Made by a program: the position numbers and the translations under genes
Shown here: piece after piece, positions 31,089 through 53,449 of the stretch
How positions within the stretch are numbered: position 1 is the stretch's first letter
How the letters are laid out: each line of letters begins with the position of its first letter
Source of the DNA: Escherichia phage vB_EcoM_011D4
Strand: one strand, 5' to 3'
Sequence record: MT478991.1
DNA length: 64,000 nucleotides
The notes under the pieces: generated by a model
Told to the model about the DNA's origin: nothing
The model's input: only the letters and a program-made list of their open reading frames with translations
Databases searched by the model: none

Positions 31089-31598
31089 GATTAAATCATC
31101 ACATTGTTTGCGTAGTTTATAGCGATACTGTTTTGATTGTAGCAATTGAAGTTTTTCATAATCCCCTTCCTCATATGCAGCCGAAAGATCATCTTGATAT
31201 GCTGCTTCCGTCCCGATTACACATACTCCAAATTTTCTACGACGGTCGGCATCTTCCATTGCTTTGCGATTCATTTCTTCAATTGAATTTTCATGACCAT
31301 AATAATATTCGTAAATGCGTTTCTTCTCTGCTTCTTTATCTGCCTTAATCTTTGCGATCTGTTCTGCTGATTCCGGTTGACGACCTAAACGCTGTAATGA
31401 GGCGTCTTTCTTTTCAAGGTAGTCAATAACGCAATCTTCAACGCTATTAAATGGAAAACGTGACTCTTTCTGCCATCGTTCACATGACCGTACAAACTCG
31501 TGTGTATTCTTAGATGCAAGTGCCAGATCATGCACAGCGCACCCATTAAGCATAGCCACTAAAGCCGCAGCAAGACCAATCAGTTTAATCATTTTCAT
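31083..31598 (-). CDS. putative lipoprotein
   Basis: 171 aa; N-terminal signal peptide with Cys (LAAALVAMLNGC). Confidence 0.5.
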   Translation of the reverse strand: MKMIKLIGLAAALVAMLNGCAVHDLALASKNTHEFVRSCERWQKESRFPFNSVEDCVIDYLEKKDASLQRLGRQPESAEQIAKIKADKEAEKKRIYEYYYGHENSIEEMNRKAMEDADRRRKFGVCVIGTEAAYQDDLSAAYEEGDYEKLQLLQSKQYRYKLRKQCDDLIK

Positions 31599-32419
31599 TT
31601 AGTCACCTCACCGAAAATTGTAAATTGTCTACGATTCTCATCACCGAAAGATTCTACTACGTCGTTTACCTTGACGCAAGTCCCGCGCGGTAAAATTACT
31701 TCACATTCGCAAGGATTCCATGCAATTGACCCAACAACAAAACCTTTATGATCTTTTACGTCAATTACCCACGATACATTACAAGAATGTTGCATCTTTC
31801 CGGTCATGGATTCATATCGATTCTCACAATAAAGGCTAGTGCTGTTTGATAGCCAGCCTCCAAAGATGATCGGTGTCATGCTGGTTGACACAAAGTTTTT
31901 AAAGGTAAATTCCTTATCTTCAATAATACGCTCTATTGTCTGAATGTCAAGATGTTGACCGCGATAAAGAGTACCGTTTAACTTTTCGGTTTTATCCATG
32001 ACGCAATCCATCAAATCAACAATCTCTGATATCTCATCGGTCATGTCTTCTTCCCCTAAGAGAGCACCATTTACCCATTCGTATTGTTCAGACACATAAT
32101 CACAGATTGCATTATATTCTGCTGGGGTTATGTTGTTATGTTTGTAATGTTTGAATACATTATCTCCAAAGTCTTCGGAGTGTACTTCATACATCACATT
32201 AATGATTTTCTTGACAAATCCATAATCTTGTGTCTCACGCTCAAGGAAGCGGATAACCTTCACATAATCATCAAAGTTAATCTGATCGCTGATCATCTCA
32301 GTGATCATGTAACCATTAATCCCCTCAATGTCATATGTTTCGATGTAATTATCCATACGTTCCATCATTGATTCGCGTGATTCTTCTGAAAGACGAAAAT
32401 CCTGTAATTTCTTGAACAT
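31595..32419 (-). CDS. ADP-ribosyltransferase, Alt/Mod-family paralogue
   Basis: 274 aa; R-S-E triad TLYRGQ, FVSTS, CECEVILPRG parallels the Alt C-terminus. Confidence 0.7.
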   Translation of the reverse strand: MFKKLQDFRLSEESRESMMERMDNYIETYDIEGINGYMITEMISDQINFDDYVKVIRFLERETQDYGFVKKIINVMYEVHSEDFGDNVFKHYKHNNITPAEYNAICDYVSEQYEWVNGALLGEEDMTDEISEIVDLMDCVMDKTEKLNGTLYRGQHLDIQTIERIIEDKEFTFKNFVSTSMTPIIFGGWLSNSTSLYCENRYESMTGKMQHSCNVSWVIDVKDHKGFVVGSIAWNPCECEVILPRGTCVKVNDVVESFGDENRRQFTIFGEVTK

Positions 32420-32497: not shown

Positions 32498-34549
32498 TTA
32501 CATTTTAAATTTATCTGGCATTGCGTCTACAGATACCAGATCAGCGATAAGCTGACGTAGAGTTGCCTTATCTGCTTTCTTACGTTCGGTTTTAGCTTCG
32601 CTAATGAAGCTGGAGAAAGACAGGTCAGAAGCAGGTTTAACAACACCTTCACGGATGAATGCATCACCGTCCGCGATCATCTCGCCAGATTCTTGTAATG
32701 CTGCCAGTTCATTTTTGTTCATAATATGTGCCTCAATGTAATAAGTTTCTTGTGAATCCGTCGATGCCGTAGCACGAGTTACCGTATCAAAGGATAACAC
32801 AACACCGCGAGGAAGTAAAATCTCGCATTCTTTGTAAGCAAATGCTTTGTTACCTACTGGCAAGACAGGGATGTTTTCCGCGCCAGCAATGGAGAAAGCA
32901 ACATTAGCGCCACCTTCACCGCGAGAGCCAGCCATAGAATCAACACCAGCAACGGCACTAGCCACGTTTGCATTCCAGCCGCCAAAAATGTTAGGTGCAA
33001 GGGAAGTGCTCACATAGTTTTTAAAGTAAAACGCTTTTTGCTTACGTGCAGTTTCCCACATTTGCGACCGGAAGTCCATACCACGATACAGAATAGTACC
33101 CGGATCAAGTTTAACTCCATAGTTGGAGAAGGCATTATCCAGTGCATCACACATCTTGACCAATTCTTCTGGATCTGCGATGCCTTCAAACTCTTCCAGC
33201 TTACGGTCGGTTAGGAAGTTGTTCATATTGATGTATGCTGCATCGGCATATTCGCTCAACACAAAACCTTCCGCGCCAGGCAGATCAAGATCAATATCTG
33301 CCATCATTTCACCCATGTTGCTAGCAATTGCTTCAAACATACCGGAAGCAACATTACGTAGGGCATCGGTTTTAATCTGGGTGATATGACTACGCAACAT
33401 TTCAGCTTTTACATCTGCTGGCATAGACTGGTCTACTCGATCCATTGCCAGAGCGGTGATCTTGTTTTCGAATACTTCCTCGCTCATGATTTCTTTTAAG
33501 CGTTTGATTGATGCTGCGATAACTTCCGCAGACAACGGATCATATTGATCCTGAACTTTTACCAGTTCGCTTACTGCGTATTTTGCATCGGCTTCGCTTT
33601 CAAAAATAGTACGCATGAAACCATAGCGAGTGATAATATCACTTGTCCAGTCATTCAGAGAACGGGCGGTTGAACGTTCTAAGGCTTGACGATCAATCAG
33701 AGTATTAAACTGTTTCTTAGGTTCGGCTTCGGTGATATCTTCTTCCGGTTTAAGATTAATTTTTTCTGGATGATTCACATAGTCGCTGTTATAGGTCGCT
33801 TGAGTTTTCAGCATTTCTTCTTTAGTCAAACGAGATTTAGCCGCTACGCGTTGTTCCGCTTCCGCGTTTCGTTCTTCTTCTGACACAAGACTAGCCGCAT
33901 ACGCCTCATCTTTAGTCAGAGATTCACCAGTAGCCTTAGATACCCAGCGATCACCTAAATCACTTTCTACTTTAGTGAACAAGGATTCATCAAGTTTAAT
34001 CCCTTTAATCTTATCAATCGCCATACCGCGACGCTTGACAACAACTAAAGCGATCTTTTTGCTGGTCATTACTTCCTGCTGGAATACTTCAAACTTCGGT
34101 GTACGACGCACCAAACGCTCTATAACGCGCTTAACCAGTTCGGTCTTACCTTTCATGCGGGATACGTTAAAACGGAACATAACAGCGTCTAACTGCGCTT
34201 TACGGGCTGTTTCCATAACCACATCAAAAGCACTTGCCATAACTGCAATCGGGTTATCGCCTAGACCATTTTTAAGCTGTACAATACGACCGCTTTTGTT
34301 CATTTCGCACAGTACAACATGTGCGGTCTTGTCACCCATACGAATGATTTTAGGTGTTTTGTTGGTGAAGTTACAAAGACGGACAATCACATCTTTATCG
34401 CGTGTCTGTACTGCAAAAAGCTGTTTAGGATTCTGCTTAGGCTTTAAGCACTGTACCGGGGCAATACTACCAAAGTTTTCTTCCTCTTCCGTCAACAGCC
34501 ATTTCTCGAAAGATTCAATCATTAGATCGTCGATTTCTAAGTTAAACAT
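32498..34549 (-). CDS. alt: Alt ADP-ribosyltransferase (head-packaged)
   Basis: 683 aa; C-terminal ART motifs YRG, STS, ECE; downstream of gp54 as in T4. Confidence 0.88.
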   Translation of the reverse strand: MFNLEIDDLMIESFEKWLLTEEEENFGSIAPVQCLKPKQNPKQLFAVQTRDKDVIVRLCNFTNKTPKIIRMGDKTAHVVLCEMNKSGRIVQLKNGLGDNPIAVMASAFDVVMETARKAQLDAVMFRFNVSRMKGKTELVKRVIERLVRRTPKFEVFQQEVMTSKKIALVVVKRRGMAIDKIKGIKLDESLFTKVESDLGDRWVSKATGESLTKDEAYAASLVSEEERNAEAEQRVAAKSRLTKEEMLKTQATYNSDYVNHPEKINLKPEEDITEAEPKKQFNTLIDRQALERSTARSLNDWTSDIITRYGFMRTIFESEADAKYAVSELVKVQDQYDPLSAEVIAASIKRLKEIMSEEVFENKITALAMDRVDQSMPADVKAEMLRSHITQIKTDALRNVASGMFEAIASNMGEMMADIDLDLPGAEGFVLSEYADAAYINMNNFLTDRKLEEFEGIADPEELVKMCDALDNAFSNYGVKLDPGTILYRGMDFRSQMWETARKQKAFYFKNYVSTSLAPNIFGGWNANVASAVAGVDSMAGSRGEGGANVAFSIAGAENIPVLPVGNKAFAYKECEILLPRGVVLSFDTVTRATASTDSQETYYIEAHIMNKNELAALQESGEMIADGDAFIREGVVKPASDLSFSSFISEAKTERKKADKATLRQLIADLVSVDAMPDKFKM

Positions 34550-34864: not shown

Positions 34865-34893
34865 ATTATGATATACACCCTCTGTTATGTCAA
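34865..34893 (-). promoter_or_regulatory. sigma70-type early promoter
   Basis: Minus strand TTGACA-N17-CATAAT then ACACCCATACCGAAACGA leader. Confidence 0.6.
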
Positions 34894-34899
34894 CAACTT

Positions 34900-35079
34900 T
34901 TAGAACATTTTTGAAATTAATTCTGCTTTGATTTCGCAGAGAACATCTAAAGATTTCTCGTCACCTGCTTTTGCGGCTTCTGCTTGCATTTTTGAAATGG
35001 CTTCAATGTCAGTGCAATTATAAGCCGCTTGAACTTTAGCGATTGCGATGATTGCCGATTCGATGGTTAATTGTTTCAT
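34900..35079 (-). CDS. hypothetical early protein (59 aa)
   Basis: ATG after AGGAGAATCAAAC leader; not in ORF track. Confidence 0.45.
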   Translation of the reverse strand: MKQLTIESAIIAIAKVQAAYNCTDIEAISKMQAEAAKAGDEKSLDVLCEIKAELISKMF

Positions 35080-35111
35080 GTTTGATTCTCCTTTCGTTTC
35101 GGTATGGGTGT

Positions 35112-35140
35112 ATTATAGGGGATCGATGATCCCCTGTCAA
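35112..35140 (-). promoter_or_regulatory. early promoter with palindromic spacer (PeSL-like)
   Basis: Minus strand TTGACA-GGGGATCATCGATCCCC-TATAAT. Confidence 0.7.
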
Positions 35141-35668: not shown

Positions 35669-35998
35669 TTATAGTCTCCTGAATGGATCATCACGTAAAT
35701 CAATATCTTTTAAGAACTCATCCCATGAATGGCGGATGTTGTTCTTAATTCTCCAGATAAGAGCAGGGATTGAACGCTCTCCCATCTGGAAGTATGGATC
35801 ATATGATCCGTATGCCCAATATGCTACTACAATTCCACAATCAGCGCAATAGTATTCTATTTCACTTGCTGGCGACCAAAGTCCATCAATATGATCGGTG
35901 ATCTTGCTTTCGATGTTATGGCTATGACAATCAGGGCAACGGATGCAATGACCTTGTTTATCGTAATTTGACGTTAGCGAATACTTAAACAATCTCAT
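35669..35998 (-). CDS. zinc-ribbon protein
   Basis: 109 aa; CIRCPDC...CADC; start/stop coupled with flanking genes. Confidence 0.5.
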   Translation of the reverse strand: MRLFKYSLTSNYDKQGHCIRCPDCHSHNIESKITDHIDGLWSPASEIEYYCADCGIVVAYWAYGSYDPYFQMGERSIPALIWRIKNNIRHSWDEFLKDIDLRDDPFRRL

Positions 35999-36714
35999 TA
36001 TAGATCCTTATTTGCTTCAAATACTGCCTTTGCGAATCCTCGCGGGGTAAGTGACCTTATAGTCTTTGTTTTCGTTCCTTTCCCGCCTAGCTTAGAATGC
36101 TGTTTACTGTACCCTTTATTAATCTGCAACGGTTTCTTTTCTGGCATTATAAAGCCTTGTCCGGTCCATAAGCAAGTCTTTTTCGGGTACATATCACGGG
36201 CGGCAATATACTCAGGAAACGTAGGATGCTTATCATCTTCCGGCAAATAACCGCCATATTCCCACGGATGGAACATGTAATCAGGCTTACGCCACATGCT
36301 AGAGATAACGCTTACAGGATTCTCTATCATGTAGGGAACTCCGAGCCATTCACCCAAATAAGCGGTTATTTTAGCTGCCCGTACATCATGAACTTGAATC
36401 AATGGTCCTTGTTCTCGTTTCTTTCGTTCAAAGTGCGCAGCGCCACTAACAGCTAAATTGGTGCACGGTGGGAATGCAAAGATAATATCCGGTTTCCCCC
36501 ATTCAAGGTCCATTGCTCTTTCCAGCCAGTTCAAATCAATCCAGGTGTTTACATAGGTAATGTTTGGATGTTCAAATCTGGTATTATACTTTTTGTATGT
36601 ACCGTGGTCGGCGTCATCCGCATTAAAGCAGACTACCTTATGACCTGCTTTAGCCCATTCTAGCCCCATTATCCCCGATCCGTCAAAGTTGCAGAATATT
36701 AATTTTTGTTTCAT
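35998..36714 (-). CDS. compact DNA (cytosine-5)-methyltransferase-like protein
   Basis: 238 aa; motif I FDGSG, motif IV FAFPPCTNLAVSG (Pro-Cys), motif VI MIENP, motif IX RSLTPRGF. Confidence 0.6.
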   Translation of the reverse strand: MKQKLIFCNFDGSGIMGLEWAKAGHKVVCFNADDADHGTYKKYNTRFEHPNITYVNTWIDLNWLERAMDLEWGKPDIIFAFPPCTNLAVSGAAHFERKKREQGPLIQVHDVRAAKITAYLGEWLGVPYMIENPVSVISSMWRKPDYMFHPWEYGGYLPEDDKHPTFPEYIAARDMYPKKTCLWTGQGFIMPEKKPLQINKGYSKQHSKLGGKGTKTKTIRSLTPRGFAKAVFEANKDL

Positions 36715-37244: not shown

Positions 37245-37273
37245 ATTGTAGGGGAGTTATCCTCCCCTGTCAA
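37245..37273 (-). promoter_or_regulatory. early promoter with palindromic spacer (PeSL-like)
   Basis: Minus strand TTGACA-GGGGAGGATAACTCCCC-TACAAT. Confidence 0.65.
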
Positions 37274-37287
37274 CACTTTTTATAAAA

Positions 37288-37455
37288 TTATTTGTTAATT
37301 TCTGGTGCGTTGCTAGGATAGTAACCTTCTTTAACTCCGAGGTATTTCGCAACCATCCCTACAATCTTCTGTGCTACTACAATGTCAAATTTCAGATAAT
37401 CTTCACCGTAGGTTTCAATGATATATGCTTCACATGCTGCTTTAGTCTCGAACAT
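37288..37455 (-). CDS. hypothetical protein, paralogue of 40544..40711 (copy 1)
   Basis: 55 aa MFETKAACEAYIIETYGEDYLKFDIVVAQKI.GMVAKYLGVKEGYYPSNAPEINK; not in ORF track. Confidence 0.5.
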   Translation of the reverse strand: MFETKAACEAYIIETYGEDYLKFDIVVAQKIVGMVAKYLGVKEGYYPSNAPEINK

Positions 37456-37488
37456 TTTGATTCTCCTATTTCGTTTCGGTATGTGTGC

Positions 37489-37517
37489 ATTATAGGGGAT
37501 CTCCCGATCCCCGTCAA
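37489..37517 (-). promoter_or_regulatory. early promoter with palindromic spacer (PeSL-like)
   Basis: Minus strand TTGACG-GGGATCGGGAGATCCCC-TATAAT. Confidence 0.65.
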
Positions 37518-37530
37518 CAACTTTTTTAAA

Positions 37531-37812
37531 TTATTCGTGATTAGTTTCGATGTTGTGCATTTTGCACCAGTTCAGCCAATCGCCAAGATCTTGATAGTTG
37601 ATGCTTTTATCTGCTGCCATCGTTTTTGTCTTGATACCCATATGTGCGTTATGAGTAAGCATTTTTACAGTGAACTCGATTTTATCGCCTTTAGCTTTAA
37701 CATCAACCAGTTTGGTCCACTGGCTACCAGCGCCGCGAATGTTCATACCAACGATGTTTCCGATGTATGCTTCTTTGTTTTTCAGGATTTCGGTTGCTTT
37801 GATGAATTTCAT
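37531..37812 (-). CDS. hypothetical early protein
   Basis: 93-aa ORF behind consensus promoter/leader. Confidence 0.5.
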   Translation of the reverse strand: MKFIKATEILKNKEAYIGNIVGMNIRGAGSQWTKLVDVKAKGDKIEFTVKMLTHNAHMGIKTKTMAADKSINYQDLGDWLNWCKMHNIETNHE

Positions 37813-37845
37813 TTTTGATTCTCCAGTTCGTTTCGGTATGGGTGT

Positions 37846-37874
37846 ATTATGCTATGTTCTTACTTTGGTGTCAA
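37846..37874 (-). promoter_or_regulatory. sigma70-type early promoter
   Basis: Minus strand TTGACA-N17-CATAAT. Confidence 0.6.
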
Positions 37875-37881
37875 CAACTTT

Positions 37882-38151
37882 TTAGATATTTTCAGAAATA
37901 AATTTTAAAACTTGACGTAAATGTTTCTCATCTTTGATAGTCGCCGGAAGTTCTTCTTTTACTTCCTGTGCAAGATAGATATTTCCGTTCCAAGTGAAAG
38001 ATCCGTCTTCGTTTACGAGATAGCTGAACATCCACTCGCAATCATTTTCGATTTCATATACACACAGAAGGGTGTAATCGTTAAAGCTATTGATTTCAAG
38101 GTCGAAGCCGTGACGTTTTGCAAAGTTGGTAGTGGTTTTAGTCAGTGCCAT
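37882..38151 (-). CDS. hypothetical early protein
   Basis: 89-aa ORF behind consensus promoter/leader. Confidence 0.5.
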   Translation of the reverse strand: MALTKTTTNFAKRHGFDLEINSFNDYTLLCVYEIENDCEWMFSYLVNEDGSFTWNGNIYLAQEVKEELPATIKDEKHLRQVLKFISENI

Positions 38152-38191
38152 TGTTTGATTCTCCTAAGTGGTATCTCGTTTCGATGGGTGT

Positions 38192-38220
38192 ATTATGCTA
38201 TAGGCGTGTTCTGGTGTCAA
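38192..38220 (-). promoter_or_regulatory. sigma70-type early promoter
   Basis: Minus strand TTGACA-N17-CATAAT. Confidence 0.6.
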
Positions 38221-38279
38221 TTCTTTTTTTAAAAAATTTTATGCAATAAAAAAGCCGACGCTAAGGTCGGCTAATAAAA

Positions 38280-38588
38280 TCATTTAGACAAATAATCATT
38301 CTGTGCAATCCGGTCGGCGTATGCTGGTGTTACGTCAATCGCAATCACTTTAACGCGTGCTTTCTTGCGACCTGGGTTTTCTCGTAACCAGTGCTCATGA
38401 CCGTGCACATTTTTATACTTTGATGCTTCTTCGAAGGTACGGATCGGACCTGGGTAATCAGCGTAAAGGATCTCTAGATCTTCGGTGATGTAAAAATATA
38501 CATCGTAATTGCTGTTCTCTAGCTTAAGCAGAGACTTTCGGAACATTGGGAGATTTTCGCGGGTAAATTCAAAGATATTATCTTTCAT
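38280..38588 (-). CDS. HxHW-family small protein (paralogue A)
   Basis: Start at internal MKDNIF with RBS GAGGA; motifs YFYITEDLEIL, HGHEHW, VIAIDV. Confidence 0.5.
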   Translation of the reverse strand: MKDNIFEFTRENLPMFRKSLLKLENSNYDVYFYITEDLEILYADYPGPIRTFEEASKYKNVHGHEHWLRENPGRKKARVKVIAIDVTPAYADRIAQNDYLSK

Positions 38589-38611
38589 AGTATTATCCTC
38601 AATAGTTGGAT

Positions 38612-38633
38612 GAAAAGGGGGCTTAACGCCCCA
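38612..38633 (-). terminator. intercistronic terminator-like hairpin
   Basis: Minus strand GGGGCGTTAAGCCCCC + TTTT. Confidence 0.5.
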
Positions 38634-38637
38634 TATA

Positions 38638-38925
38638 TTAAAACAGTCCTTCCTGTACACCGTAATAGAGTTCGTCGCTGATAATTTCATTAATGCGACG
38701 GTGTGCATATTCCTGATTTGCGAAGTTGTCAGCAAGTTCTACTTTAGTTTCTCCGTCATGAGTCCATTTAGTGATAACTTTACCATCTGCAAATTTGAAG
38801 TTGAACTCTTTAGCTACCGCATCGCGTACCAGACGTGCAAACTTATTGTTGCGGATTGCATTGTCGGTTTCGTGTGCAGCGTGAGCGAATTTGTTAACTT
38901 TCAGAGTGATAGTAATGTATGCCAT
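38638..38925 (-). CDS. hypothetical protein, paralogue of 41912..42223
   Basis: 95 aa; shared NAI.IR..R.A.AKEFN.K segment. Confidence 0.5.
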   Translation of the reverse strand: MAYITITLKVNKFAHAAHETDNAIRNNKFARLVRDAVAKEFNFKFADGKVITKWTHDGETKVELADNFANQEYAHRRINEIISDELYYGVQEGLF

Positions 38926-38971
38926 AATTTGATTCTCCTAGTTAGAAAGTGTATCTCGTTTCGATGGGTGT

Positions 38972-39000
38972 ATTATGCTATACACCCGACCTCATGTCAA
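38972..39000 (-). promoter_or_regulatory. early promoter with stem-loop over the -10 (PeSL-like)
   Basis: Minus strand TTGACA-N17-CATAAT; GGGTGTAT..ATACACCC inverted repeat. Confidence 0.6.
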
Positions 39001-39006
39001 CACTTT

Positions 39007-39285
39007 TTATAAAATAATTTTTTGATATTTTTCTATGATGTTTGTGTAGGTCACATCAACCGCTAGCACCGTTGCTTCGAATCCACCGTCTAGCCAATGG
39101 CTATGATCTCTTTCATCAAAGAAGCCGAGGCCAATACGAAGACCATCCTTAAACTCTGCGCGTACATTTAGATCATCATCGATAAACAGATAAAACCATG
39201 AATTTTTACTAGGATTGATGATACAACCTTTCAGATTAGGGAGAATATCACGACTAAGAATAAACTTATCACCTACTTTGAACAT
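39007..39285 (-). CDS. HxHW-family small protein (paralogue B)
   Basis: Start at MFKVGDKF; FYLFIDDDLNV, HSHW, VLAVDV. Confidence 0.5.
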   Translation of the reverse strand: MFKVGDKFILSRDILPNLKGCIINPSKNSWFYLFIDDDLNVRAEFKDGLRIGLGFFDERDHSHWLDGGFEATVLAVDVTYTNIIEKYQKIIL

Positions 39286-39299
39286 AATATTTTCCTCAC

Positions 39300-39608
39300 T
39301 TATAAAGTTTGACCGTTGTTTTTCGCGTAATGCTGAATGCGTGCTTGATCTGCTTCCGCTGGTGATAGATTCCATGCGATCACTACAACTTCTGACGCAT
39401 CATGATCATTATCACTTACCCAATGATTGTGATTCATACAGTTATTTGCTATCGCGTGAGAAAATGATTTCATCACTGGAGACGTATAATCATAGTAACG
39501 GATTTTCAGATTTTCATCAACGTACAAATAGATCGTATAAGGTTTATATTCAGTAACCAGTAACAGACAGTTACGCAATTCTGGGAAAATCTTTTTAGTT
39601 AATTTCAT
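39300..39608 (-). CDS. HxHW-family small protein (paralogue C)
   Basis: 102 aa; YLYVDENLKI, HNHW, VVVIAW. Confidence 0.5.
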   Translation of the reverse strand: MKLTKKIFPELRNCLLLVTEYKPYTIYLYVDENLKIRYYDYTSPVMKSFSHAIANNCMNHNHWVSDNDHDASEVVVIAWNLSPAEADQARIQHYAKNNGQTL

Positions 39609-39810
39609 ATTCTAGTTCTCCGTAATACACAGTAATCCATTTTTCTTCATACTTTGTATCTTTCCAGCACACAATCCCGTTTACTGTGCAATCTTTGGAA
39701 TTGACGAATGATTCATATTGTTCTGCATCTTCCATCATTGCATGAGCGGTCTTTTCATCGAATATATCGCAGATCGCTTTATATGCTCGATAATCTTTAA
39801 ATTTGCTCAT
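39595..39810 (-). CDS. hypothetical protein, tandem paralogue 1 (MSKFKDYRAY)
   Basis: Listed ORF starts at a TTG; ATG at 39810; about 50% identical to the next gene. Confidence 0.45.
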   Translation of the reverse strand: MSKFKDYRAYKAICDIFDEKTAHAMMEDAEQYESFVNSKDCTVNGIVCWKDTKYEEKWITVYYGELEYEIN

Positions 39811-39812
39811 AA

Positions 39813-40028
39813 TTAACACCAATCAAGAGTTTTTGAGAAAACCTCTATCCATTGTTGAGTATATGCGGTTTCTTTCCATGACACAATACCAGTCGAATAA
39901 TGGTTTTTGTTTCCAGAAAAGGACGGGCATTTTGATGCATCTTCCATCATCTTTTCGGCGAACTCTGGTGCGTATACTCGCAAAATCTGTTGATATGCTT
40001 TGTATTCTTTAAATTTGCTCATAATCAT
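39813..40028 (-). CDS. hypothetical protein, tandem paralogue 2 (MIMSKFKEYKAY)
   Basis: 71 aa; shares MSKFK.Y.AY, MMEDA, GIV.WK.T.Y with the neighbour. Confidence 0.45.
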   Translation of the reverse strand: MIMSKFKEYKAYQQILRVYAPEFAEKMMEDASKCPSFSGNKNHYSTGIVSWKETAYTQQWIEVFSKTLDWC

Positions 40029-40287
40029 TCACTACCTTATCAGCTTCTTTTGTTGTTTTTACATCAACTGCGATAACTCGTAAAGGTTCGTCATGGTTCC
40101 ACCAGTGGTCATGAATATCGGCTTGTGATTTATCACCAAAGGAATCACGAATATCATTTTTACATTTATAGCTAATGTGACCGTCATAGTCAACATAAAG
40201 GTAATTATCGAAAATCGGCGTTTTTAAGATCATACCGAAAAATCTTTCTTTGTGTGTCTTATCCAGCGTTGCAGTAATTCGCATCAT
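40009..40287 (-). CDS. HxHW-family small protein (paralogue D)
   Basis: 92 aa; YLYVDYDGHISY, HDHWW, VIAVDV. Confidence 0.5.
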   Translation of the reverse strand: MMRITATLDKTHKERFFGMILKTPIFDNYLYVDYDGHISYKCKNDIRDSFGDKSQADIHDHWWNHDEPLRVIAVDVKTTKEADKVVNDYEQI

Positions 40288-40299
40288 AATATATTCCTC

Positions 40300-40479
40300 T
40301 TAGAAAGGGATGGTCATTTCTTGAGCTTGTACATTCTCGTTAGGATTAAACTTCATCCAACCGATATTGTCTACCAGCATATGCACATTTTTATCATATC
40401 CTACGTGGGTAGTCAATACTGTATGTGCTTTACCTTCAATGATGAGTTCCATGTACTTCTGAACTTCGATAGCTTTCAT
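40300..40479 (-). CDS. hypothetical early protein (59 aa)
   Basis: ATG after GGAGAATCAAA leader; not in ORF track. Confidence 0.4.
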   Translation of the reverse strand: MKAIEVQKYMELIIEGKAHTVLTTHVGYDKNVHMLVDNIGWMKFNPNENVQAQEMTIPF

Positions 40480-40511
40480 TTTGATTCTCCGTTTGTTGTC
40501 TTTATGGGAGT

Positions 40512-40540
40512 ATCTTACTACTCCCTTTAATCATTGTCAA
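40512..40540 (-). promoter_or_regulatory. early promoter with stem-loop (PeSL-like)
   Basis: Minus strand TTGACA then GGGAGTAGTAAGATACTCCC hairpin; -10 approximate (TAAGAT). Confidence 0.5.
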
Positions 40541-40543
40541 CTA

Positions 40544-40711
40544 TTATTTGTTAATTTCTGGTGCGTTGCTTGGATAGTAACCTTCTTTAACACCCAGATA
40601 TTTTGCAACCATTCCGGTGATCTTCTGTGCTACTACGATATCGAATTTCAGGTAGTCTTCACCGTGGTTTGCTACAATGTATGCTTCGCATTCTGCTTTA
40701 GTCTGGAACAT
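40544..40711 (-). CDS. hypothetical protein, paralogue of 37288..37455 (copy 2)
   Basis: Starts at internal Met MFQTKAECEAY of listed ORF 40544..40747; near-identical C-terminus to copy 1. Confidence 0.5.
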   Translation of the reverse strand: MFQTKAECEAYIVANHGEDYLKFDIVVAQKITGMVAKYLGVKEGYYPSNAPEINK

Positions 40712-40745
40712 TTTTGATTCTCCTATATCTCGTTGGTATGTGTGC

Positions 40746-40774
40746 ATTATAGGGGATCACAGATCCCCTGTCAA
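40746..40774 (-). promoter_or_regulatory. early promoter with palindromic spacer (PeSL-like)
   Basis: Minus strand TTGACA-GGGGATCTGTGATCCCC-TATAAT. Confidence 0.7.
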
Positions 40775-41337: not shown

Positions 41338-41640
41338 TTACGCAAAATGGCGTGTCAATGCTTCTTTTGCTGTTCCGCTAAGATTCTCGATCTCTCCTGG
41401 CATAACATCAACCGCCAGAACTTCTACAACATCCTCTGATCCTAACCAGTGAGTATGACCTTTGTAGAACTTGATATCCCATTTAACGCTATCGCTAGCC
41501 CACCACACATCACCGTCGATAAAGTTGATGTAAAGCACACTACGCCACATTGAATTAATTACTTTCAATACTGCGCCTTTCATCTCTTCCACGGTATGGT
41601 CTTCCATTTTGAAGACCTCACCTACCTGAACTTTTGCCAT
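41338..41640 (-). CDS. HxHW-family small protein (paralogue E)
   Basis: 100 aa; YINFIDGDVWW, HTHW, VLAVDV. Confidence 0.5.
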   Translation of the reverse strand: MAKVQVGEVFKMEDHTVEEMKGAVLKVINSMWRSVLYINFIDGDVWWASDSVKWDIKFYKGHTHWLGSEDVVEVLAVDVMPGEIENLSGTAKEALTRHFA

Positions 41641-41657: not shown

Positions 41658-41837
41658 TTACATAACAATCACGCCAGCCGTTGAAAGTTGATGTTTCAAC
41701 TGAGCATTTTCTGCTACCGTCAAATCAATGATTTCTTGTGACGCTGCAATCATATAGCCATTGGTGATATTGTTTTGCATCAGTTCAATGGTTTCTTCGT
41801 TGTAGCGGATTTTAGCGATGATTTCGTTGAAGTTCAT
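41658..41837 (-). CDS. hypothetical early protein (59 aa)
   Basis: ATG after GGAGAATCAAT leader; not in ORF track. Confidence 0.4.
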   Translation of the reverse strand: MNFNEIIAKIRYNEETIELMQNNITNGYMIAASQEIIDLTVAENAQLKHQLSTAGVIVM

Positions 41838-41871: not shown

Positions 41872-41901
41872 ATTATAGGGGAGTTTAACCTCCCCTGTCA
41901 A
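41872..41901 (-). promoter_or_regulatory. early promoter with palindromic spacer (PeSL-like)
   Basis: Minus strand TTGACA-GGGGAGGTTAAACTCCCC-TATAAT. Confidence 0.65.
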
Positions 41902-42268: not shown

Positions 42269-42297
42269 AGTATAGGGGATCGGTGATCCCCTGTCAA
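42269..42297 (-). promoter_or_regulatory. early promoter with palindromic spacer (PeSL-like)
   Basis: Minus strand TTGACA-GGGGATCACCGATCCCC-TATACT. Confidence 0.65.
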
Positions 42298-53108: not shown

Positions 53109-53276
53109 TCACTTTTTAACACAAAAGAACTTAGTATTTCTGTTAACTTCGCTATCCTGCTGCAATTCCTGCACAGCTTCAAAACAATTTTGATGTGATG
53201 AAAACTCTACGCTGGTAACAGTTCCTTTATTATATGATCCTACGCTAACGGAAAGCAATAACCATAATGTAGCCAT
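53109..53276 (-). CDS. small signal-peptide-like protein, tandem paralogue 1
   Basis: 55 aa MATLWLLLSVSVGS...; TAATG coupling; not in ORF track. Confidence 0.4.
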   Translation of the reverse strand: MATLWLLLSVSVGSYNKGTVTSVEFSSHQNCFEAVQELQQDSEVNRNTKFFCVKK

Positions 53277-53449
53277 TAGTTCACCTTTTGTTTTTCAACG
53301 CAATATAGATTCATAAAGCGTTTATTGTCTTCACGGATAATCTCGCGAGCTTTAACGCAATCCTGCTTTGTGGAAAATTCAATGCTTGACATATTTCCGT
53401 AATTATACATTGAATTGCTTATTGCAATCAATAACCATACAGTAGCCAT
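53276..53449 (-). CDS. small signal-peptide-like protein, tandem paralogue 2
   Basis: 57 aa MATVWLLIAISNS...; coupled to neighbours. Confidence 0.4.
   Translation of the reverse strand: MATVWLLIAISNSMYNYGNMSSIEFSTKQDCVKAREIIREDNKRFMNLYCVEKQKVN

What the first reader, a model, noticed from the sequence alone, without database searches (positions are those of the whole stretch)
37288..40774. Duplicated gene-plus-promoter cassette about 3.2 kb apart
The 55-aa gene at 37288-37455 and the one at 40544-40711 encode near-identical proteins (MFETKAACEAYIIETYGEDYLKFDIVVAQKIVGMVAKYLGVKEGYYPSNAPEINK versus MFQTKAECEAYIVANHGEDYLKFDIVVAQKITGMVAKYLGVKEGYYPSNAPEINK). Similarity continues through the leader and into the upstream promoter with its GGGGATC..GATCCCC palindrome (37489-37517 versus 40746-40774), roughly 85% identical over about 230 bp by eye. 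This looks like a recent duplication of a complete promoter-gene module.
Basis: seen in the sequence. Interest (0 to 1): 0.5.

Follow-up and report, generated by a model that had tools for sequence, protein, structure and literature searches.

The report
Old paralog pair in PeSL cassettes
Two copies of a tiny early phage gene of unknown function, each behind one of the phage's many near-identical promoter/stem-loop cassettes (PeSLs, described in 2010), are an old duplication shared by the whole RB49-like phage genus and not a recent event, so the finding is real but ordinary.

Summary
Two 55-aa ORFs on the minus strand (37288-37455 and 40544-40711) share 143/168 nt and 48/55 aa. Each is preceded by a TTGAC-N17-TATAAT promoter with a GGGGATC..GATCCCC hairpin in the spacer.

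The window is a Krischvirus (RB49/phi1/JSE-like T4-type coliphage). The copies are orthologs of RB49 ORF191 and ORF205. The upstream elements are PeSLs (promoter-early stem-loops; Arbiol et al. 2010). That paper cloned PeSL206/205, the element upstream of copy B in RB49, and found it a strong promoter. It also found ORF191 in an excised mini-circle.

The interpretation needs two corrections.
- **The duplication is not recent.** Synonymous divergence between the copies is near saturation (dS 0.84-1.05), against 0.03-0.06 between orthologs in most comparisons. Nearly all of about 58 Krischvirus genomes carry both copies.
- **The promoter similarity is mostly generic.** It is 90-91% between A and B, against 79-90% to PeSLs of unrelated neighbouring genes. 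Similarity specific to this pair is essentially the coding sequence.

The repeats do recombine. Phage Cognac has a chimeric single copy and lacks the 3.26-kb interval. Brandy, JK32 and MIZ4 lack copy A, and the Brandy and MIZ4 junctions are chimeric PeSLs. The protein's function is unknown. This is a known system of low novelty.

The parts
37288..37455 (-). Copy A: 55-aa early ORFan, ortholog of RB49 ORF191 / phi1 ORF191 (PHROG 8009, function unknown)
   Evidence: ORF and translation. It is 96-100% aa identical to ORF191 orthologs. PHROG 8009 matches at E = 1.7e-37 and there is no Pfam hit.
37456..37488 (-). Leader of copy A, carrying the Shine-Dalgarno sequence (GCACACATACCGAAACGAAATAGGAGAATCAAA). 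The A-type leader travels with the gene across phages.
37489..37517 (-). PeSL core of copy A: -35 TTGACG (37512-37517), -10 TATAAT (37489-37494), and the stem-loop GGGGATC-GGGA-GATCCCC (37495-37512) in the spacer
   Evidence: Promoter scans score 11/12. The hairpin centroid is -13.9 kcal/mol. It matches the PeSL subclass with the stem between -35 and -10. The site is a recombination junction in Brandy, MIZ4, RB49 and JSE.
40544..40711 (-). Copy B: 55-aa early ORFan, ortholog of RB49 ORF205 / phi1 ORF205
   Evidence: The protein is identical to RB49 ORF205.
40712..40745 (-). Leader of copy B, carrying the Shine-Dalgarno sequence (GCACACATACCAACGAGATATAGGAGAATCAAAA)
40746..40774 (-). PeSL core of copy B (equivalent to RB49 PeSL206/205): -35 TTGACA (40769-40774), -10 TATAAT (40746-40751), and the stem-loop GGGGATC-TGT-GATCCCC (40752-40768)
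   Evidence: The promoter match is 12/12 and the hairpin is supported. The element differs from the RB49 sequence by one loop base. RB49 PeSL206/205 drove about 13,000 Miller units of lacZ in Arbiol 2010.
37245..37273 (-). PeSL immediately downstream of copy A (promoter of the ORF190 homolog). It marks the 3' boundary of cassette A.
   Evidence: hairpin -19.4 kcal/mol. Its leader forms the 3' half of the chimeric junction in Brandy.
40512..40540 (-). PeSL-like promoter immediately downstream of copy B (promoter of the ORF204 homolog), of a different subclass with the stem overlapping the -10. It marks the 3' boundary of cassette B.
37518..40543 (-). Interval between the copies: 10 small early ORFans (homologs of phi1 ORF193, 194 and 197-204). 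In phage Cognac this interval and one cassette copy are missing.
   Evidence: ORFs and synteny with phi1. All are PHROGs of unknown function with no Pfam hit. The Cognac collinearity break is shown.

Best explanation
The window is the hyperplastic early-gene region of a Krischvirus, an RB49-like T4-type coliphage. The two 55-aa genes are an old paralog pair, RB49 ORF191 and ORF205.

Each gene sits in a PeSL cassette. A PeSL is a dispersed intergenic element of about 75 nt made of:
- an AT-rich stretch;
- a consensus sigma-70 -35/-10 promoter;
- a GGGG...CCCC hairpin, here in the 17-nt spacer;
- a conserved leader with a strong Shine-Dalgarno sequence.

Host RNA polymerase transcribes each cassette immediately after infection. 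The hairpin is thought to attenuate read-through from the cassette upstream.

One copy arose from the other, or both from a common source, long before the sampled Krischvirus genomes diverged. The route was most likely PeSL-PeSL homologous recombination, meaning mini-circle excision and reintegration (inferred). Both copies have since been kept under strong purifying selection. The PeSLs around them are continually exchanged and homogenised with the other PeSLs of the region. That explains why the promoters look co-duplicated.

The two cassettes are also about 240-bp direct repeats that occasionally recombine, with gene-conversion patches and one natural 3.26-kb deletion. The protein is a small acidic early ORFan of unknown function. 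It is probably a non-essential host-interaction accessory factor (inferred only from its early promoter and its loss in some genomes).
For: **Identity of the phage and genes.** The region is 93-97.5% identical to Krischvirus genomes. A and B correspond to RB49p191 and RB49p205.

**PeSL anatomy.**
- Ten promoter matches of 11-12/12 lie on the minus strand in 34.5-42.5 kb. Nine of them lie in the gaps between genes, and the TTGACA at 41901 overlaps the stop codon of the gene upstream.
- They share leader motifs and hairpins.
- They fit the published description.

**Published experiments.** PeSL206/205 is a very strong promoter. ORFs 191-194 were recovered as an encapsidated mini-circle formed by crossover between PeSLs, between the -10 and the ATG.

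**Age and selection.** dS between A and B is 0.84-1.05 with omega 0.05-0.08. Orthologs show dS 0.03-0.06. Nearly every Krischvirus has two copies.

**Generic promoter similarity.** Stem-loop variants swap between the A and B promoters in different phages.

**Recombination products.**
- Cognac's single gene has a B-type promoter and leader, an A-type 5' CDS, a B-like patch at nt 114-141 and an A-type 3' flank. Collinearity jumps from window 40543 to 37524.
- Brandy lacks only A, and its junction is an A-type stem fused to the ORF190 leader. JK32 and UPWr_E1 show the same gene order, but their junctions were not read.
- MIZ4 lacks A through ORF186 and has a chimeric PeSL at the junction.
- Brandy's B carries an A-like tract at about nt 51-75.
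Against: - The direction and mechanism of the original duplication cannot be reconstructed. The PeSL downstream of B and the one downstream of A are unrelated subclasses, so no intact footprint of a mini-circle insertion remains.
- Outside homologs are slightly closer to A than to B: P0003 is 85% against 78%, and swi2 is 76% against 67%. Two separate acquisitions therefore cannot be excluded.
- Terminator activity has not been shown for these two hairpins. Neither is followed by a U-run, so the terminator scan did not call them.
- The single-copy genomes are database assemblies. I could not check the reads.
- Nothing here tests the protein's function.
Confidence: 0.8

Rival explanations
1. Recent intragenomic duplication of a complete promoter-gene module.
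For: - The two copies are each other's best match in the genome at 87% aa.
- Promoter and leader are 90-91% identical.
- In this particular phage both promoters share a G right after the -10.
Against: - dS is 0.84-1.05, which is 15-30 times the ortholog divergence.
- Both copies sit at conserved loci in RB49, phi1, JSE and about 50 other genomes.
- The promoter identity is barely above that to PeSLs of unrelated genes.
- The shared G is absent from copy A of RB49, phi1 and JSE.
Confidence: 0.03
2. The genes are xenologs and not paralogs. Two already-diverged homologs were captured independently from different donor phages by PeSL-mediated integration into the same hyperplastic region.
For: - The gene family moves between unrelated phages. 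Homologs of 72-74% aa identity occur in Swiduovirus and Skatevirus siphophages, and a 42% homolog in Sashavirus. Each sits in a small divergent moron next to terL.
- An 85% A-like homolog (P0003) lies on an unrelated contig directly after an ORF194 homolog and has no PeSL.
- Outside homologs are closer to A than to B.
- The PeSL model explicitly allows such insertions.
Against: - A-B identity (87% aa) is still higher than the identity of either copy to any outside homolog.
- A and B share the C-terminal APEINK tail. Among outside homologs only P0003 has it (as APEIN), and the siphophage proteins lack it.
- B's extra distance from outgroups fits faster change at a few sites (residues 3, 13-16 and 32).
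- With 55 residues the tree cannot be resolved.
Confidence: 0.15
3. The similarity reflects ongoing concerted evolution. The copies are much older still and are kept alike by frequent gene conversion.
For: Mosaic tracts are visible: an A-like tract in Brandy's B, a B-like tract in Cognac's chimera, a single B-type site in JSE's A, and a nearly identical last 45 nt of the CDS.
Against: - The 25 fixed A/B differences are stably inherited across the four two-copy genomes examined. The A and B alleles form two clean groups, with 162-167 of 168 nt identical within a type and 141-151 between types.
- Conversion is therefore sporadic and does not dominate.
Confidence: 0.1

Closest known systems
PeSL (promoter-early stem-loop) + ORFan cassettes of phages RB49/phi1 (Arbiol, Comeau, Kutateladze, Adamia & Krisch 2010, PMC2839356; Comeau et al. 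2014, PMC4122927)
   Same: - It is the same phage genus and the same loci, ORF191 and ORF205.
- It has the same composite element: AT-rich tract, sigma-70 consensus promoter, GGGG..CCCC stem between -35 and -10, Shine-Dalgarno sequence and ATG.
- It shows the same association with insertions and deletions.
- PeSL206/205 and the ORF191-194 mini-circle were studied experimentally in that paper.
   Different: Nothing differs in kind. In my term searches of the two papers I found no statement that ORF191 and ORF205 are paralogs. The natural recombinants seen here (Cognac, Brandy/JK32/UPWr_E1, MIZ4/5) are in genomes whose accession numbers indicate deposition after those papers. That dating is my inference.
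Morons of lambdoid phages and siphophages (Hendrix et al. 2000)
   Same: Both are a single small accessory gene with its own promoter. The siphophage homologs of this gene sit in just such a divergently transcribed 2-3 gene insert next to terL.
   Different: Morons are not bounded by a conserved repeated linker sequence. Here the repeated PeSL is itself the recombination substrate.
Integron gene cassettes
   Same: Both involve promoter-associated shuffling of small ORFs through circular intermediates at repeated sites. Arbiol et al. draw this analogy themselves.
   Different: There is no integrase and no attC/attI sites. Recombination presumably uses the general T4-type homologous recombination machinery, and each cassette carries its own promoter.

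Membership tests
PeSL cassette (Arbiol et al. 2010) | Sigma-70 consensus -35 and -10 hexamers with a spacer of about 17 nt | tested here: met
   A is TTGACG-17-TATAAT (11/12) and B is TTGACA-17-TATAAT (12/12).
PeSL cassette (Arbiol et al. 2010) | AT-rich tract upstream of -35 that contains the stop codon of the upstream gene | tested here: met
   A has ...CACGAATAATTTAAAAAAGTTG and B has ...TATAAAGCATTATAAAGTTG. The upstream ORFs end at 37531 and 40780.
PeSL cassette (Arbiol et al. 2010) | Stable G/C-rich stem-loop (polyG...polyC) in one of five positions relative to the promoter, most commonly between -35 and -10 | tested here: met
   The stems are 7-8 bp (GGGGATC/GATCCCC) and lie in the spacer. 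Centroid energies are -13.9 and -12.7 kcal/mol, z about -2.2.
PeSL cassette (Arbiol et al. 2010) | Shine-Dalgarno sequence and start codon of a downstream ORFan at the 3' end, located in a hyperplastic region | tested here: met
   TAGGAGAATCAAA(A)ATG. All neighbouring genes are PHROGs of unknown function. The region lies between alt and DNA ligase, as in RB49 and phi1.
PeSL cassette (Arbiol et al. 2010) | Strong early promoter activity | not testable with these tools
   Published for RB49 PeSL206/205 (about 13,000 Miller units). The window's element differs from it by one loop base. The promoter of copy A was not tested in the paper.
PeSL cassette (Arbiol et al. 2010) | Terminator/attenuator activity of the stem-loop | not testable with these tools
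   Shown in the paper only for PeSL211/210. Neither hairpin here is followed by a U-run, and the terminator scan did not call them.
PeSL cassette (Arbiol et al. 2010) | Acts as a site of homologous exchange, with indel junctions falling inside PeSLs | tested here: met
   Chimeric PeSLs sit at the Brandy and MIZ4 junctions. Cognac's crossover lies between the leader and the ATG. The RB49 and JSE insertions lie at the PeSL upstream of A.
Recent segmental duplication | Near-identity at synonymous sites and lineage-restricted presence of the second copy | tested here: not met
   dS is 0.84-1.05. Both copies are present across the genus.
Recent segmental duplication | Flanking non-coding similarity specific to the pair | tested here: not met
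   Promoter and leader identity between A and B is 90%/91%, against up to 90%/88% to PeSLs of unrelated genes.
PHROG 8009 (protein family, unknown function) | Full-length match to the family profile | tested here: met
   E = 1.7e-37 and 1.2e-38 over positions 1-55 of 55. There is no Pfam hit and no PDB hit.

The most novel reading that the evidence does not exclude
The two homologous cassettes may work as about 240-bp direct-repeat handles. These would make the whole 3.26-kb block of ten early ORFans between them excisable and transferable as one composite PeSL mini-circle. The Cognac genome would be the chromosome left behind after such an excision. On this reading the conserved paralog pair is retained partly because it mobilises the block. 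A second speculative reading is that the A and B isoforms differ at residues 3, 7, 13-16 and 32 because they have specialised on different host targets.
Probability: 0.15. Interest if true: 0.35.

Novelty: already known. Interest (0 to 1): 0.15.

Why it matters
The finding changes little. It re-identifies, from raw sequence, a published system (PeSL cassettes) at loci that were themselves used in the original experiments.

The modest added value is comparative:
- Newer Krischvirus genomes provide natural recombinants (Cognac, Brandy/JK32/UPWr_E1, MIZ4/5). The three junctions I read (Cognac, Brandy, MIZ4) fall inside the PeSLs or cassettes, as the 2010 mini-circle model predicts.
- The ORF191/ORF205 pair shows that a duplicated cassette can persist under purifying selection for a long time.

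The case also gives a general caution for scanning. Where a dispersed regulatory repeat precedes many genes, similarity of promoters is not evidence that promoter and gene were duplicated together.

Tried and rejected
**Function of the 55-aa protein.**
- Pfam gave no hit and PDB sequence profiles gave none.
- PHROG 8009 carries no function.
- The word-indexed homolog search found 5 clusters.
- The exhaustive HMM search of 1.84 billion representatives found 9 hits. About 5 are real small homologs. P0009 proved to be a TPR-type repeat protein matching 'AYPANHPEIA', a spurious hit. P0010-P0012 show the same multi-stretch pattern and are probably spurious too.
- The AlphaFold2 model on the 6-sequence alignment had mean pLDDT 55.7 and pTM 0.37. 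That is too poor for a fold search, so none was run.

**Other searches.**
- Rfam found no family in 34-43 kb.
- A literature search for the RB49 and phi1 locus tags and accessions returned nothing.

**Readings considered and rejected.**
- The 67-aa extended ORF for copy B: its ATG lies within the -10 region and has no Shine-Dalgarno sequence.
- The palindrome as an operator specific to this gene pair: the same stem precedes unrelated genes.
- A third copy elsewhere: tblastn showed at most 2 places in every listed record.

**Footprint of the original insertion.** I looked for one by comparing the PeSLs downstream of A and B. They belong to different subclasses, so there is no trace.


Full report
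**1. The observation**

The minus strand carries two 55-aa ORFs at 37288-37455 (copy A) and 40544-40711 (copy B).
- They share 143/168 nt (85.1%) and 48/55 residues.
- Of the 22 differing codons, 15 are synonymous and 7 nonsynonymous.
- An all-against-all blastp of the window's minus-strand ORFs gives E = 3e-34 for the pair, the strongest paralogy in the window.

The stated palindrome coordinates are precisely the -35 to -10 spans of two near-perfect sigma-70 promoters:
- A is TTGACG-17-TATAAT at 37517-37489.
- B is TTGACA-17-TATAAT at 40774-40746.

Each has a 7-8 bp GGGGATC/GATCCCC hairpin filling the spacer, with centroid energies of -13.9 and -12.7 kcal/mol. Core promoters are 26/29 identical and leaders 31/34. 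Similarity ends at the stop codon and just upstream of AAAGTTGTTGAC.

**2. What the region is**

The 4.2 kb around the finding is 93-97.5% identical to 58 phage records, all Krischvirus (RB49, phi1, JSE, ECD7 and others). Krischvirus is the RB49-like genus of T4-type coliphages.

In RB49 the two genes are annotated as RB49p191 and RB49p205, and in phi1 as ORF191 and ORF205. RB49 ORF205 is identical in protein to the window's copy B. RB49 ORF191 differs from copy A at two residues.

The region lies between the alt ADP-ribosyltransferase genes and DNA ligase. It consists of small ORFs of unknown function, all on one strand. The nine I scanned, apart from the methyltransferase, have no Pfam match and fall in PHROGs of unknown function.

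**3. The upstream element is a PeSL, a dispersed repeat**

Arbiol et al. 2010 (PMC2839356) described about 50 'promoter-early stem-loop' (PeSL) motifs in each of RB49 and phi1. A PeSL consists of:
- an AT-rich tract holding the upstream stop codon;
- a sigma-70 consensus promoter;
- a GGGG...CCCC stem-loop, most often between -35 and -10 or overlapping the -10;
- a Shine-Dalgarno sequence and the start codon of an ORFan.

The window fits this description. In 34.5-42.5 kb there are ten minus-strand promoter matches of 11-12/12. Nine lie in the gaps between genes, and the TTGACA at 41901 overlaps the stop codon of the gene upstream. They share leader motifs such as ATACCGAAACGAA and GGAGAATCAAA.

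The very same GGGGATC..GATCCCC stem precedes unrelated genes at 35112-35140 and 42269-42297.

Promoter-plus-leader identity compares as follows:

| Comparison | Core | Leader |
|---|---|---|
| A vs B | 90% | 91% |
| A vs PeSL of gene 34900-35079 | 86% | 88% |
| A vs PeSL of gene 41658-41837 | 80% | 88% |
| B vs PeSL of gene 34900-35079 | 90% | 79% |

Over the whole element of about 75 nt, A-B identity is 88%, against 86% and 84% for A's next-best partners.

Across phages the stem-loop variants (loops GGGA, ACC, GGT, TGT) are distributed without regard to whether the gene behind them is A or B. For example, JSE copy A carries the stem found before phi1 and MIZ4 copy B. The G after TATAAT that A and B share in this window is absent from copy A of RB49, phi1 and JSE.

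Only the leader is stably linked to its gene. The promoter resemblance is therefore family resemblance among PeSLs. It is not evidence that promoter and gene were copied together.

**4. Age of the duplication**

| Comparison | dS | dN | omega |
|---|---|---|---|
| A vs B (window, RB49, phi1, JSE) | 0.84-1.05 | 0.05-0.06 | 0.05-0.08 |
| Same copy in different phages | 0.03-0.06 (0.24 for Brandy's B) | | |

The A and B alleles form two clean groups: 162-167 of 168 nt are identical within a type and 141-151 between types.

tblastn finds two places in nearly every Krischvirus record. It finds one place in Cognac, MIZ4, MIZ5, UPWr_E1, Brandy and JK32.

The duplication therefore predates the radiation of the sampled genus, and both copies are maintained by purifying selection. 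'Recent' is not supported.

**5. The repeats are recombinationally active**

Collinearity blastn, junction sequences and gene order in the annotations show several outcomes.

a. **Cognac** runs collinear with the window down to copy B (40543). It then continues from 37524, so 3.26 kb holding ten genes and one cassette copy is missing. Its single gene is a mosaic:
   - B-type upstream flank, promoter and leader;
   - A-type CDS from the start codon;
   - a B-like patch at about nt 114-141;
   - A-type 3' flank.

b. **Brandy** lacks only copy A. Its junction, between the ORF193 and ORF190 homologs, is a chimeric PeSL. It joins the A-type stem GGGGATCGGGAGATCCCC to the leader of the ORF190 homolog. 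That is what excision by crossover between the two flanking PeSLs would leave. JK32 and UPWr_E1 show the same gene order in their annotations, but I did not read their junctions.

c. **MIZ4** lacks copy A through the ORF186 homolog, again with a chimeric PeSL at the junction. MIZ5 also has a single B-type copy at the same position, but I did not fetch its locus.

d. **RB49 and JSE** each have an insertion at the PeSL immediately upstream of A. RB49 carries ORF192 (477 nt) and JSE carries an ORF of 312 nt. I did not align the two inserts, and they differ in length.

e. **Brandy's copy B** carries an A-like tract at about nt 51-75, which indicates gene conversion.

These natural products match the published experiments. 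[quoted passage not shown] ORF192 is the paper's paradigm of a PeSL-flanked indel.

PeSL206/205, the promoter of copy B in RB49, was cloned in front of lacZ. It gave about 13,000 Miller units. Most clones had acquired -35 or -10 mutations, which indicates a very strong promoter.

**6. Origin**

The gene family is tiny.
- The word-indexed search found 5 clusters in 5.8 billion proteins.
- The exhaustive profile search of 1.84 billion representatives found about 5 genuine clusters.

The family is nevertheless mobile.
- Homologs of 72-74% aa identity occur in Swiduovirus and Skatevirus siphophages, and a 42% homolog in Sashavirus.
- Each sits in a small divergently transcribed insert next to the large terminase gene.
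- Each has its own sigma-70-like promoter without the PeSL stem.
- Each is followed by a conserved 68-70-aa gene.

An 85% A-like homolog (P0003) lies on an unrelated metagenomic contig. It comes directly after a homolog of ORF194 (41% aa) with no PeSL between them.

Outside homologs are somewhat closer to A than to B. This is compatible with A being the older resident and B a faster-evolving derived copy. It is also compatible with two separate captures. The 55-residue alignment cannot decide. I rate intragenomic duplication as more likely because A-B identity exceeds that to any outgroup, and because both share the APEINK tail that the siphophage homologs lack (P0003 has APEIN).

**7. How it works**

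Shown here or in the literature:
- Each cassette has a consensus early promoter and a strong ribosome-binding site.
- The B promoter is experimentally very strong.
- The cassettes and their PeSLs are substrates for homologous exchange that deletes, inserts or converts DNA.

Inferred:
- The hairpin attenuates read-through from the upstream cassette. This was shown only for PeSL211/210, and neither hairpin here has a U-tract.
- The original duplication went through a PeSL mini-circle or an unequal exchange.

Unknown:
- What the 6.2-kDa acidic protein does (pI 4.9 for A and 5.6 for B). It has no Pfam or PDB relatives, and the AlphaFold model was unreliable at pLDDT 55.7.
- Copy A is dispensable in at least five sequenced phages, which suggests a non-essential accessory role. 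No listed Krischvirus lacks both copies.

**8. Verdict**

The feature is real and the observation accurate. The system is already published for these very loci, so novelty and interest are low.

Noticed in passing
window 38280-38591, 39007-39285, 39300-39608, 40009-40287, 41338-41640 (all minus strand): A multi-member paralog family of ORFans of about 90-100 aa sharing a C-terminal 'HW...(V/L)(I/L)A(I/V)DV' motif. Pairwise identity is 25-34% and two members fall in PHROG 9345. Gene duplication is therefore common in this hyperplastic region, and the A/B pair is just the least diverged case.
   Followed up: partly
window 39595-39810 / 39813-40028 and 53109-53276 / 53276-53449 (minus strand): Two tandem pairs of small paralogous ORFs, at 43% and 40% aa identity. 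Within each pair there is no PeSL between the members.
   Followed up: no
window 37518-37530 (the PeSL upstream of copy A); L001:4384-4920; L009:6570-6930: This single intergenic PeSL is an insertion hot spot. RB49 has ORF192 (477 nt) there and JSE has an ORF of 312 nt, while the window and phi1 have nothing. I did not align the two inserts. Five further genomes have deletions that start at this site.
   Followed up: partly
window 34870-35080 (gene 34900-35079, ORF186 homolog): This is another single-gene PeSL cassette with presence/absence polymorphism. It is missing in Cognac according to the collinearity blastn. It also appears to be absent from the JK32 annotation.
   Followed up: partly
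window 38173-38271: A classical intrinsic-terminator-like hairpin with a T-run lies at 38253-38272. It is the only one in this gene string. At this site RB49, MIZ4 and Brandy carry about 400 extra bases (ORF195/196), and the flanking 100 bp aligns to both sides of the indel.
   Followed up: no
window 37495-37512, 40752-40768, 35117-35134, 42274-42291; gene 35998-36714: One PeSL subtype has two GATC sites in its stem, inside the promoter spacer. A phage DNA methyltransferase gene (PHROG 757, no Pfam hit) lies in the same region. I did not examine whether methylation of these sites affects promoter or hairpin function.
   Followed up: no
L006:4001-4358, L008:3001-3358, L007:2992-3386: In three siphophage genera the homolog of the 55-aa gene is always followed by a conserved 68-70-aa gene (MPTNYMPRCLREIPK...). 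The two form a divergently transcribed moron beside the large terminase gene. I saw no homolog of that partner gene in the window, though I did not search for it formally.
   Followed up: no
L012:4723-5165: On an unrelated metagenomic contig (Logan SRR5584643) an ORF194 homolog (41% aa) directly abuts an A-like homolog (85% aa). This echoes the ORF191-194 mini-circle of RB49 and hints that the two genes travel together.
   Followed up: partly
window 31595-32419 and 32498-34549 (minus strand): These are two Alt-like ADP-ribosyltransferase paralogs, 37% identical over 109 aa, as annotated in RB49 (ORF183/184).
   Followed up: no
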